Assembly: GCA_014728035.1 (NCBI GenBank)
Contig: WJMJ01000131.1
Coordinates: 32,001 to 96,000 of the forward strand
Length of the DNA: 64,000 bases
Direction: 5' to 3'
DNA from: Promethearchaeota archaeon
Lineage (GTDB): Archaea; Asgardarchaeota; Thorarchaeia; Thorarchaeales; Thorarchaeaceae
The translations under genes and the position numbers were made by a program. The notes under the pieces are model-generated. The model had not been told where the DNA came from. It saw only the letters and a list, made by a program, of their open reading frames with translations, and searched no databases. Below, in pieces: positions 59,694 to 62,016 of this stretch (positions are counted from its first letter, which is position 1; the number at the start of each line of letters is the position of its first letter).

Positions 59694-60641
59694 TCACAAA
59701 CGAGGGGCTGGAATGTACCATTCTTCAAGAGATATCTGTGATTGTGTGTCGAGAATATCTTGATTCCCATATACCGAACGAATGAATTCGTTGTACTCTC
59801 GTACACTTGAAACACGTACAGTGGCAAATAAGCTGAATTCTTCTCCAACTCTATGAAGATCCCACACCTCATCCAGGGATACTATCTGTTGAGCAACCTG
59901 TGATACTTTTCCAGGCCTTGGACGAATCCTCAAAAAGAATTTGATAGGTAAATCAACATACGAAAAATCGATGTCAATAGAGTATCCAATGATGCATTTC
60001 TGTCGCTCTAATCGTTTCATCCCCTTTGAAATAGCAGGCTGACTTAGAGGAACTGATAGAGACTCACCAATCTCCTGCTGAGTTGGAGGATATGGCCTCT
60101 CTGGAGTGGGTGCAGTTCGACGGAGCGTATTTAATAAATCCCAGTCGTTTTGAGATATAATAGGTGTACCTACCTTTATAGGAGGTACTATTAACCCATG
60201 TGTCTTGTAAGTTGCTAAGACTTGAACGATATTGTATGTTTGTGAAAGCGACTTAGCAGTAACAGTGTCCACTACGTCAAGAAACTTCTCAAATGCATGA
60301 GCATCTCTAAAACGAAAAAGTCCAATGAGAGAATGGTCACCAGTCAACCCATCCAGCCACTCTAAGTCAGGCATGGCAATCAAGGCCTTGCTTATGTCAA
60401 TCTCACGAGGATTGGTCTTTAATAACAAAAGACTACTCCGTTCTGCATACACATATGCAGGATTCAGGATTGCTAGATATGAACGAATAATACCCCATTT
60501 TACTAATTTCTTGATCGTTCTTGAAACCCAATTCCTTCCCTTTTTCTTTTCCATCTTCTTTCCAAGTGATGAAATGCTAGTACGGGAGTCGGTAAGAAGT
60601 AAAAAAAGTAAGTTCTTTTGACTATCAGTAATTTTTTGCAT
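59694..60641 (-). CDS. Tandem Lrp/AsnC-family transcriptional regulator
   Basis: Two HTH plus RAM repeats (LLTDSRTSIS..GII, TGDHSL; QQEIG..LSQPAIS, VGEEFSL). Confidence 0.85.
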   Translation of the reverse strand: MQKITDSQKNLLFLLLTDSRTSISSLGKKMEKKKGRNWVSRTIKKLVKWGIIRSYLAILNPAYVYAERSSLLLLKTNPREIDISKALIAMPDLEWLDGLTGDHSLIGLFRFRDAHAFEKFLDVVDTVTAKSLSQTYNIVQVLATYKTHGLIVPPIKVGTPIISQNDWDLLNTLRRTAPTPERPYPPTQQEIGESLSVPLSQPAISKGMKRLERQKCIIGYSIDIDFSYVDLPIKFFLRIRPRPGKVSQVAQQIVSLDEVWDLHRVGEEFSLFATVRVSSVREYNEFIRSVYGNQDILDTQSQISLEEWYIPAPRL

Positions 60642-60728
60642 ATAATACTAAATGAATTAATGCAAAATATTATTTACGGTGATGGAGGATTGATATAGAC
60701 GCATAGCAACGATTGTTTTGTGATTACA

Positions 60729-61776
60729 ATGGCAGATTACAAAGTCAAAGACATCGACCTTGCTGAAGAAGGAAGGATGTTAATTGAATATGCAGAGAAA
60801 CACATGCCAGTCCTCATGCATCTTAGAGAGAAATATTCCCAATCAAAACCTCTCAAGGGTATGAGAATAGCTGGGTGCCTCCATGTCACTAAAGAAACAG
60901 CTGTTCTTGTAGAAACACTCCAAGCAGTTGGAGCAGAAGTGGCTTGGTCAGGTTGTAACCCATTATCTACCAACGATAAAGTTGCAGCTGGATTAGCCGC
61001 GAATGACGTTCCGGTGTTTGCATGGCATGGACTGAATACAGAAGAATATTATTGGTGTATTGAAGAAACCCTGAAGAGAGAACCAACTCTTACTCTTGAT
61101 GATGGTGCGGATCTGATTTTCACATTGCACAACAAACATCAAGACCTTATCCCAAATTTGTACGGTGGCTCGGAAGAAACAACTACAGGTGTGATTCGTG
61201 TTAGAGCAATGGCAGAAGATGGTGCACTGAAGTACCCGATAATGGCAGTAAATGATGCGGACACAAAACACCTGTTTGATAACAGATATGGAACTGGACA
61301 GAGCGTCTTTGATGGGGTTCTTAGAGCATCAGCAATTCTGATTGCTGGAAAAACAGTGGTTATTGGAGGATATGGCTTCTGCGGCAGAGGTATGGCTGAA
61401 CGTGCAAGAGGCCTTGGTGCAAATGTCATCGTTACAGAGGTTGATCCTGTAAGAGGTTTACAGGCAAGAATGGACGGATACAGAGTCATGAAAATGGATG
61501 AGGCAGCTTCTGAAGGTGATTTGTTTCTAACAGCAACTGGAATGAAGGATGTCATAACTGGCGAGCATATGAAAGTCATGAAAGATGGTGCATTGATGGG
61601 AAATGCAGGACACTATAATGTAGAAATTAACGAACCGCACCTGATTGAGCTAAGTACAGGTAAACGCCGTGTTCGACACGCTCTTGACGAGTACAAGATG
61701 AAAGATGGCCGACGCCTCTATCTACTAGGCGAAGGTCGACTAGTCAATCTTGCGGCTGCCGAGGGTCATCCTAGTG
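60729..61776 (+). CDS. ahcY: Adenosylhomocysteinase (SAH hydrolase), exon 1
   Basis: MPVL, GCLHVT, CNPLST, DDGADL, EETTTG, KHLFDNRYGTGQS, GYGFCGRG and GRLVNLAAAEGHPS motifs. Confidence 0.95.
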
Positions 61777-61807
61777 AGAGGCAAGCATTTGGTGCTGCTT
61801 CCTAGAA
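61777..61807 (+). other. Putative 31-nt bulge-helix-bulge (archaeal endonuclease-type) intron in the ahcY mRNA
   Basis: CTAG-TGA...CTAG-AAA central helix and bulges with an internal hairpin. Excision after the second nucleotide of each bulge gives CAT CCT AGT GAA GTG ATG (HPSEVM) in frame. Confidence 0.82.
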
Positions 61808-62016
61808 AAGTGATGGACCTCTCGTTCGCAGGACAACTCAATGCAATGATCTGGATGGCAAAACACGGTAAAGACCTGAAACCAGCTGTCTATGAGTTTC
61901 CAGAAGAATTAGACAAGCAGACTGCAATGGCAAAACTTGAAACCATGGGAATCAAAATCGACAAGTGGACTCCAGAACAAGAAGCATATGCTAAAGCCTA
62001 TGCAGAAGGAACTTGA
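61808..62016 (+). CDS. ahcY: Adenosylhomocysteinase, exon 2
   Basis: VMDLSFAGQ...PEELD..A.AKL..MGIKID..TPEQ.AY...GT is the conserved AhcY C-terminus, in a different frame from exon 1. Confidence 0.93.

What the first reader, a model, noticed from the sequence alone, without database searches (positions are those of the whole stretch)
61761..61823. ahcY is split by a 31-nt bulge-helix-bulge intron: candidate tRNA-endonuclease-spliced mRNA intron in a metabolic gene
Seen in sequence: AhcY reads ...NLAAAEGHPS, then a non-homologous insert, then resumes in another frame as VMDLSFA. The RNA folds as 5'-GAGGGUCAUC [CUAG][UG^A] GAGGCAAGCA-UUUGG-UGCUGCUUC [CUAG][AA^A] AGUGAUGGACCUCUC-3'. The central helix is CUAG/CUAG (61771-74 with 61802-05), with purine-rich 3-nt bulges UGA and AAA. 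The intron hairpin has 9 bp (one bulged A, two of the pairs counted include a G-U). The exon-exon helix is imperfect (GGUCAUC with GAUGGACC), so the motif is a relaxed BHB/BHL. Established: archaeal splicing endonuclease (EndA) cuts after the second nucleotide of each bulge and RtcB ligates. Applying that rule removes 61777-61807 and gives CAT CCT AGT GAA GTG ATG GAC = HPSEVMD, the conserved AhcY motif, in a 418-aa full-length protein. The archaeal protein-gene introns of this type that I know of are essentially the cbf5 introns of crenarchaea and relatives. Inference: this lineage splices a housekeeping metabolic mRNA with its tRNA-splicing machinery. More such introns could be hidden genome-wide as apparent frameshifts, which matters for intron evolution in the relatives of eukaryotes.
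Basis: partly seen in the sequence, partly recalled or inferred. Interest (0 to 1): 0.95.

Follow-up and report, generated by a model that had tools for sequence, protein, structure and literature searches.

The report
tRNA-type mini-intron splitting Asgard ahcY
The only S-adenosylhomocysteine hydrolase gene of this Thorarchaeota (Asgard) archaeon is broken by a 31-base insert shaped like a tRNA intron and kept, with matching base changes, in many relatives, so the enzyme can almost certainly be made only after the mRNA is cut and re-joined; in the papers I could search this is confirmed inside an archaeal coding sequence for one other gene only (cbf5).

Summary
ahcY (window 60729-62016, +) reads ...AAAEGHPS, then 31 nt (61777-61807) that end in an in-frame TAG, then resumes in another frame as VMDLSFA.

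Comparative evidence is strong.
- 23 distinct ahcY alleles carry an insert at this exact codon. They come from Thorarchaeota MAGs, metagenomes, an Atabeyarchaeia complete chromosome and an "LC30" MAG.
- Insert lengths are 28, 31, 32, 33 or 34 nt. In every allele, cutting 2 nt 3' of each central-helix strand restores the Glu codon of HPSEVMD.
- The structure covaries. The third base of the exon's Pro codon changes together with its intron partner (C-G 13, U-A 9, 1 break).
- Exon 2 is under strong purifying selection.
- ahcY is single-copy in this genome.
- The genome encodes a two-subunit EndA with the broad-specificity loop, and RtcB.
- An actin gene on the same contig has a 30-nt intron of the same build.

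No RNA or read data could be obtained, so splicing itself is inferred. The papers I could search report only cbf5 (coding sequence) and a Haloferax 5'UTR intron. This scan has already found ahcY and other mRNA BHB introns in other Asgard genomes. Verdict: a real feature and a new member of a known kind.

The parts
60729..61776 (+). ahcY exon 1 (Met1 ... His-Pro-Ser plus the first base G of the Glu codon). An alternative GTG start lies at 60720.
   Evidence: ORF list; Pfam AdoHcyase and AdoHcyase_NAD; aligns to PDB 7r39 residues 24-371.
61777..61807 (+). 31-nt bulge-helix-bulge intron: A + 24-nt hairpin + CUAG + AA.
   Evidence: Removing it restores GAA-GUG-AUG-GAC (E-V-M-D). Homologous inserts of 28-34 nt occur in 22 other alleles. 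My motif scan recovered it at exactly these coordinates.
61808..62016 (+). ahcY exon 2: the last two bases (AA) of the Glu codon, then VMDLSFAGQ...AEGT and the stop codon.
   Evidence: Pfam AdoHcyase positions 225-291 of 299. PDB chains align from the residue that follows the end of exon 1. dN is 0.04-0.2 with saturated synonymous sites among intron carriers.
61771..61774 (+). Central helix, 5' strand (exon CUAG: third base of the Pro codon... strictly the last two bases of the Pro codon plus AG of the Ser codon).
   Evidence: Paired with 61802-61805 in the minimum-energy fold. The pair at alignment columns 12-48 covaries: C-G 13, U-A 9.
61775..61777 (+). 5' bulge UGA; inferred cut between 61776 and 61777.
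   Evidence: Unpaired in the minimum-energy fold. The cut position is required to restore the frame in all alleles.
61778..61801 (+). Intron hairpin (GAGGCA-A-GCA / loop / UGC-UGCUUC).
   Evidence: Compensatory changes at alignment pairs 20-41, 25-38 and 28-34.
61802..61805 (+). Central helix, 3' strand (intron CUAG). It contains the in-frame TAG that ends the unspliced ORF.
61806..61808 (+). 3' bulge AAA; inferred cut between 61807 and 61808.
   Evidence: In this allele it is followed by a C.A mismatch, so the bulge is relaxed to 4-6 nt.
61764..61770 (+). Outer (exon-exon) helix, 5' strand.
   Evidence: Pairs with 61809-61819, imperfectly. In 21 of 23 alleles the pair next to the 3' bulge is C-G.
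61809..61819 (+). Outer (exon-exon) helix, 3' strand.

Best explanation
The 31 nt at 61777-61807 are an archaeal bulge-helix-bulge (BHB) intron inside the ahcY coding sequence.

Inferred mechanism:
1. The pre-mRNA folds so that exon bases CUAG pair with intron bases CUAG. This presents two 3-nt bulges (UGA, AAA) on opposite strands.
2. The (alpha-beta)2 splicing endonuclease EndA cuts after the second base of each bulge.
3. RtcB joins the exons and probably circularises the intron.
4. The result is ...CAU CCU AGU GAA GUG AUG GAC... and a 418-aa S-adenosylhomocysteine hydrolase.
5. Unspliced mRNA would give a protein truncated at the intron's TAG, lacking the C-terminal 68 residues.

Shown here: the structure, its conservation and covariation, the frame logic, selection on both exons, and the presence of the enzymes. 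Inferred: the cleavage and ligation themselves.
For: 1. Both halves are AhcY and abut exactly.

2. The same codon is interrupted in 6 of the 22 genomes of the family where the site could be read. It is also interrupted in an Atabeyarchaeia chromosome, further Thorarchaeota MAGs and metagenome contigs. That makes 23 distinct alleles with inserts of 28, 31, 32, 33 and 34 nt. These are independent assemblies, so an assembly error is excluded.

3. In every allele only G|insert|AR restores the Glu codon. Those cuts lie 2 nt 3' of each 4-nt central-helix strand, which is the canonical EndA rule.

4. Covariation: 85.6% of cells are paired against 17-39% in slid controls, and 0 of 500 shuffles reach the observed score. 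The exon Pro-codon wobble base covaries with the intron (C-G 13, U-A 9, 1 break). There are compensatory changes in three hairpin pairs. This allele's own three differences from its nearest relatives all preserve pairing or fall in the bulged base.

5. The minimum-energy fold contains at least 3 of the 4 central-helix pairs in 20 of 23 alleles.

6. Exon 2 is under purifying selection among carriers: 8.5 non-synonymous against 36.5 synonymous differences between this genome and L006, with synonymous sites saturated.

7. ahcY is single-copy in this genome.

8. The enzymes are present.
- The EndA alpha subunit has the Tyr/His/Lys catalytic residues and aligns end to end with A. pernix alpha, including the Crenarchaea-specific loop (RKPK against EKPR, K44/R46).
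- A His-less beta subunit is present.
- RtcB is present.
- PMC5829648 reports the (alpha-beta)2 type with this loop for Asgard archaea.

9. An actin gene on the same contig carries a 30-nt intron with the same '1 nt + hairpin + 4 nt + 2 nt' build.
Against: - No RNA-level or read-level evidence: no sequencing run was listed for this DNA.
- This allele's own motif is relaxed. There is a C.A mismatch next to the 3' bulge, the minimum-energy fold draws a 6-nt bulge, and the fold z-score is only -2.1.
- Three of the 23 alleles do not show the central helix in their minimum-energy fold.
- One allele (G015, L004) has a G.A mismatch in the central helix.
- The 32-nt class has a G.A in place of the fourth central pair.
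- Exon 2 begins GUG AUG, so separate translation of a C-terminal peptide cannot be excluded from sequence alone.
Confidence: 0.86

Rival explanations
1. Split gene. The insert is a short spacer. The 358-aa N-terminal part and a 67/68-aa C-terminal peptide, started at the GUG/AUG of VMD, are translated separately and assemble without a covalent link.
For: Exon 2 begins with GUG AUG. Gene callers annotate the truncated 357-359-aa form in many MAGs.
Against: The V-M-D motif is equally present in intron-less ahcY, so the AUG is not an adaptation. This model does not explain several things: the exon-intron covariation; the invariant 'AR' just before GUN that completes a Glu codon; or the fact that the 32-34-nt classes encode Val instead of the universal Glu after HPS unless the insert is removed. 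No Shine-Dalgarno-like sequence lies close to the AUG.
Confidence: 0.05
2. Translational recoding: programmed frameshifting or ribosomal bypassing (hopping) across the insert.
For: A stable hairpin lies in the gap, as in T4 gene 60. The cbf5 introns were once mistaken for frameshift sites (PMC2738675).
Against: Insert lengths of 28, 31, 32, 33 and 34 nt would need different shifts. The exon-1 frame hits a stop at the end of the insert. Reading through would add about 9 residues inside the conserved HPSEVMD motif. There are no matching take-off and landing codons that give the right frame: the repeated AGUGA of this allele would land out of frame and is absent in relatives.
Confidence: 0.03
3. 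Decaying pseudogene or assembly artefact.
For: The frame is broken. The MAG has 8.5% estimated contamination.
Against: Homologous inserts occur in at least 23 independent assemblies. There are no other lesions in either exon. Both exons are under purifying selection, and this is the only ahcY in the genome.
Confidence: 0.02

Closest known systems
BHB intron in the cbf5 (pseudouridine synthase) pre-mRNA of Crenarchaeota (Watanabe 2002; Yoshinari 2006; Yokobori 2009, PMC2738675)
   Same: - A short intron inside a coding sequence.
- A relaxed BHB at the exon-intron borders, with predicted cuts between the second and third bulge bases.
- A host with hetero-oligomeric EndA.
- Patchy gain and loss among relatives.
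- Gene callers mis-annotate the gene as truncated or frameshifted.
   Different: A different gene (a metabolic enzyme, ahcY) and a different phylum (Asgard: Thorarchaeia, Atabeyarchaeia). Splicing of cbf5 was shown by cDNA and in vitro cleavage; here it is inferred only. This genome also has at least one further protein gene (actin) with such an intron.
Non-canonical tRNA introns of Asgard and Thermoproteales archaea (PMC11291895; bioRxiv 10.64898/2026.10.13.758758; PMC3241643)
   Same: The same size range (about 30 nt), the same BHB geometry, and the same enzymes (EndA with the Crenarchaea-specific loop, RtcB). Intron-rich lineages.
   Different: The host RNA is an mRNA and the exon part of the motif is built from codons (His-Pro-Ser | Val-Met-Asp). 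The exon sequence is therefore constrained by both protein and RNA structure.
BHB intron in the 5' UTR of Haloferax volcanii HVO_1309 (Schwarz 2020, PMC7714728)
   Same: An mRNA substrate of the archaeal splicing endonuclease, shown by circRNA-seq and in vitro cleavage.
   Different: It lies in the untranslated leader, so splicing does not rebuild a reading frame. The host has a homodimeric, narrow-specificity EndA.
Ire1-dependent unconventional splicing of HAC1/XBP1 mRNA in eukaryotes (RtcB or Trl1 ligation; from general knowledge and PMC13586215)
   Same: Works alike: protein-only endonuclease cuts at two RNA structural motifs, tRNA-ligase joining, and a frame change that yields the active protein.
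   Different: The nuclease (Ire1) and the motif (two 7-nt loops) differ, and the event is stress-regulated. Not a member.

Membership tests
Archaeal BHB intron (EndA/RtcB-spliced) | A 4-bp central helix flanked by two 3-nt bulges on opposite strands. | tested here: met
   CUAG 61771-74 pairs with CUAG 61802-05, with bulges UGA and AAA. At least 3 of the 4 central pairs appear in the minimum-energy fold of 20 of 23 alleles.
Archaeal BHB intron (EndA/RtcB-spliced) | Strict hBHBh' form: both flanking helices intact right next to the bulges. | tested here: not met
   The inner helix is intact. The outer helix of this allele starts with a C.A mismatch, and the minimum-energy fold gives a 6-nt 3' bulge. 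The motif is therefore of the relaxed kind. 21 of 23 alleles have C-G at that position.
Archaeal BHB intron (EndA/RtcB-spliced) | Cleavage after the second base of each bulge yields the functional mature sequence. | tested here: met
   Restores the GAR Glu codon and the HPSEVMD motif in all 23 alleles, across five insert lengths. The exons abut on solved AhcY structures.
Archaeal BHB intron (EndA/RtcB-spliced) | Structure conserved with compensatory changes in homologues. | tested here: met
   85.6% of cells paired against 17-39% in slid controls. Four pairs change on both sides, including one exon-intron pair. 0 of 500 shuffles reach the observed score.
Archaeal BHB intron (EndA/RtcB-spliced) | The host encodes a splicing endonuclease able to cut relaxed motifs, and an RtcB ligase. 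| tested here: met
   EndA alpha (catalytic, with the loop containing the K44/R46 equivalents), EndA beta and RtcB were all found. Their activity was not tested.
Archaeal BHB intron (EndA/RtcB-spliced) | A spliced RNA junction and/or an excised (circular) intron is observed. | not testable with these tools
   No sequencing run was listed for this DNA. No full-length database protein is identical to a conceptual spliced allele.
cbf5 pre-mRNA intron family | Located in cbf5 at the catalytic Asp codon, in Desulfurococcales/Sulfolobales. | tested here: not met
   The host gene is ahcY and the organism is a Thorarchaeota archaeon. The intron works like the cbf5 intron but is not a member of that family.

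The most novel reading that the evidence does not exclude
Endonuclease-mediated mRNA splicing is a regular part of gene expression in several Asgard classes. The ahcY intron at the HPS|E codon would then be old: one origin before Thorarchaeia and Atabeyarchaeia diverged, followed by many precise losses or allele replacements. On this reading, the closest archaeal relatives of eukaryotes already carried and maintained protein-gene introns removed by the tRNA-splicing machinery, possibly with a role in regulation.
Probability: 0.3. Interest if true: 0.85.

Novelty: new member of a known kind. Interest (0 to 1): 0.68.

Why it matters
In the papers I could search, cbf5 of Crenarchaeota is the only confirmed archaeal case in which a coding sequence must be spliced to be read. 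Finding the same mechanism in a central metabolic gene would extend protein-gene introns to the archaeal lineage nearest to eukaryotes. The same genome also has such an intron in actin and, according to an earlier follow-up of this scan that I did not test, in the largest RNA polymerase subunit.

The case offers a natural system with presence/absence variation between sister genomes for studying how such introns are gained and lost.

It also has a practical consequence. Public annotations truncate AhcY to 357-359 aa in many Thorarchaeota MAGs, which can bias metabolic reconstructions and completeness estimates.

Tried and rejected
- **Sequencing runs.** None was listed, and no RNA holder was listed, so neither reads nor RNA could be laid on the site.
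- **RNA-derived spliced contigs through the protein database.** No full-length protein was identical to a conceptual spliced allele. The nearest intron-less relatives are 96-98% identical and sit on long genomic contigs.
- **Genome-wide census by a BHB motif plus joined-ORF scan.**
  - It recovers ahcY at exactly 61777-61807.
  - The number of candidates (about 1200, or 108 under tighter filters) equals that of frame-shifted controls, so it gives no usable count.
  - It also missed the actin intron, whose second exon is shorter than the cut-off I set.
  - A homology-based census is needed.
- **BLAST of the 101 nt around the intron against the genome.** It matched only itself, so there is no sign of a repeated mobile element.
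- **ARAGORN on the window.** No tRNA genes were found, so I could not compare with local tRNA introns.
- **Rejected readings.** Bypassing, frameshifting, pseudogene and artefact; see the rival explanations.

Full report
**What is in the sequence**

- The window carries one ahcY gene on the + strand. From ATG 60729 the frame reads a normal S-adenosylhomocysteine hydrolase up to ...NLAAAEGHPS. It then continues ERQAFGAAS and stops at TAG 61803-61805.
- A second frame reads (K)VMDLSFAGQ...AEGT up to the stop at 62014-62016.
- Both parts hit Pfam AdoHcyase.
- Exon 1 aligns to solved archaeal AhcY chains up to ...AAEGHPSE, and exon 2 aligns from the very next residue (7r37: 26-374 and 374-441).

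**The fold**

RNAfold of 61756-61826 gives the following:
- an outer exon-exon helix;
- CUAG 61771-74 paired with CUAG 61802-05;
- an unpaired UGA at 61775-77;
- a 10-bp hairpin with one bulged A.

On the 3' side the fold has a 6-nt bulge. The canonical alternative is the 3-nt bulge AAA, then a C.A mismatch, then G.U, U-A, G-C, A-U and U.G. The energy is only modestly better than shuffles (z -2.1). A single sequence therefore does not prove anything.

**Comparative evidence**

- The genome is a Thorarchaeota (Asgard) MAG, judging from the record titles of close relatives.
- I searched 40 related genomes with exon 1 and located both exons in each locus.
  - An insert sits at exactly this codon in 6 of the 22 family genomes where the site could be read, counting this one.
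  - It also sits there in one genome of another family, which the later scan identifies as the Atabeyarchaeia-1 complete chromosome.
  - A same-genus genome lacks the insert and has a plain GAA codon.
- A degenerate pattern for the two exon borders was run over the GTDB species genomes and over JGI metagenome contigs and added more carriers.
- In total there are 23 distinct alleles, with inserts of 28, 31, 32, 33 and 34 nt.
- In all of them only the excision G|insert|AR restores a Glu codon between HPS and VMD. In the 32-34-nt classes no other cut works, because the base after AGUG is U.
- Those cuts lie 2 nt 3' of each 4-nt strand of the central helix, which is the canonical EndA rule. The central helix is:
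  - CUAG/CUAG in the 28- and 31-nt classes;
  - CCAG/CUGG in the Atabeyarchaeia type and one Thorarchaeota allele;
  - CCAG/AUGG, with a G.A, in most 32-nt alleles.

**Covariation**

- On the MAFFT alignment A1, the 16 pairs common to all classes are formed in 85.6% of cells. With the partner slid by 1-3 columns the figure is 17-39%. No shuffle out of 500 reaches the observed covariation score.
- The most telling pair joins the third base of the exon's Pro codon to an intron base: C-G in 13 alleles, U-A in 9 and broken in 1. A synonymous exon position thus changes together with the intron.
- Three hairpin pairs show compensatory changes.
- This allele's own three differences from its nearest relatives either preserve pairing (A-U to G.U, U.G to C-G) or fall in the bulged base.
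- The minimum-energy fold holds at least 3 of the 4 central pairs in 20 of 23 alleles.

**The gene is alive**

- ahcY is single-copy in this genome.
- Among intron carriers, exon 2 differs mostly at synonymous sites. For example, there are 36.5 synonymous against 8.5 non-synonymous differences between this genome and L006. dN is 0.04-0.2 and synonymous sites are saturated.
- This excludes a pseudogene. It also shows that the frame that needs the excision is the translated one.

**The machinery**

- The genome has two EndA genes.
  - One (188 aa) carries the Tyr/His/Lys catalytic residues. It aligns end to end with the A. pernix alpha subunit, including the Crenarchaea-specific loop and its two basic residues (RKPK against EKPR, K44/R46).
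  - PMC3241643 shows that this loop confers broad substrate specificity.
  - The other (200 aa) lacks the His and matches the structural repeat and beta models.
- RtcB is present.
- PMC5829648 reports this (alpha-beta)2 type with the loop for Asgard archaea.

**Distribution**

- On an AhcY tree the intron state needs 7 changes, and well-supported branches force at least 5.
- Two pairs of sister genomes from the same genus differ in state.
- Carriers always have an AGY serine codon, whose AG belongs to the central helix. Most intron-less sisters have TCN. This hints at allele replacement rather than simple loss in place.

**Other introns in the genome**

- Following a first-reader note of this scan, I read the actin gene on the same contig (C103:1054-2184, minus strand; Pfam Actin positions 5-390 of 410).
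- A 30-nt insert at C103:1052-1081 has CCAG/CUGG, bulges AAU and UAA, and a 9-bp hairpin (z -3.76).
- Its removal joins ...LKTFQ-K-MWVSRKEFEE.
- My own motif-plus-ORF scan of the genome gave no excess over controls, so it cannot count such introns.

**Rivals**

- Separate translation of the C-terminal 68 residues, frameshifting or bypassing, pseudogene and artefact all fail to explain two observations together: the exon-intron covariation, and the exact restoration of the Glu codon over five insert lengths.
- Together I give these rivals about 0.1. The remaining few hundredths cover readings I have not thought of.

**What is known**

- The papers I could search report confirmed BHB splicing inside an archaeal coding sequence only for cbf5. 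They also report one 5'UTR intron in Haloferax. Other cases were merely 'predicted'.
- The same papers describe very many tRNA introns in Asgard archaea, but no mRNA introns.
- No paper linking ahcY to such an intron was found.
- Notes of this scan describe ahcY BHB introns in other Asgard genomes, including a 32-nt Thorarchaeota case and a 34-nt case. They also describe RNA-level support for other genes elsewhere. I treated these as leads only.

**Verdict**

It is a new member of a known kind. The missing piece is direct RNA evidence.

Noticed in passing
L068:153-182 (minus strand) = G000:C103:1052-1081, about 30.9 kb upstream of the window: The actin gene (Pfam Actin 5-390 of 410) is interrupted by a 30-nt BHB intron: CCAG/CUGG central helix, bulges AAU and UAA, 9-bp hairpin, fold z -3.76. 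Removing it joins ...LKTFQ-K-MWVSRKEFEE.
   Followed up: yes
window 61773-61775 and the same codon in L003, L005, L008, L019: The serine codon before the intron is always AGY in carriers, and its AG is part of the central helix. It is TCN in most intron-less sisters, even within a genus (AGT against TCA; AGT against TCG). This suggests that alleles were replaced by recombination rather than the intron simply being lost in place.
   Followed up: partly
L052, L038, L046 (32-nt class) compared with L037 (31-nt class): The 32-nt introns look derived from the 31-nt type. The old CUAG/CUAA partner now pairs with a new UUAG at the intron's 5' end, and an added AUGG pairs with the exon CCA(G). The exon-intron border structure seems to have been remodelled after the Pro codon changed from CCU to CCC.
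   Followed up: partly
Proteins P0005, P0008, P0037, P0038, P0050, P0055, P0073, P0074, P0093: Public gene calls for Thorarchaeota AhcY end at GHPS plus an intron-encoded tail (357-359 aa). The enzyme is therefore annotated as truncated in many MAGs. P0022 and P0103 have longer tails that hint at larger inserts at the same site.
   Followed up: partly
L047:2819-2862: A MAG titled Desulfurococcales has a run of masked N at exactly this ahcY site. Whether it carries an insert cannot be read.
   Followed up: no
window 59694-60641 (minus strand): A divergently oriented 315-aa ORF lies directly upstream of ahcY. I did not examine it.
   Followed up: no
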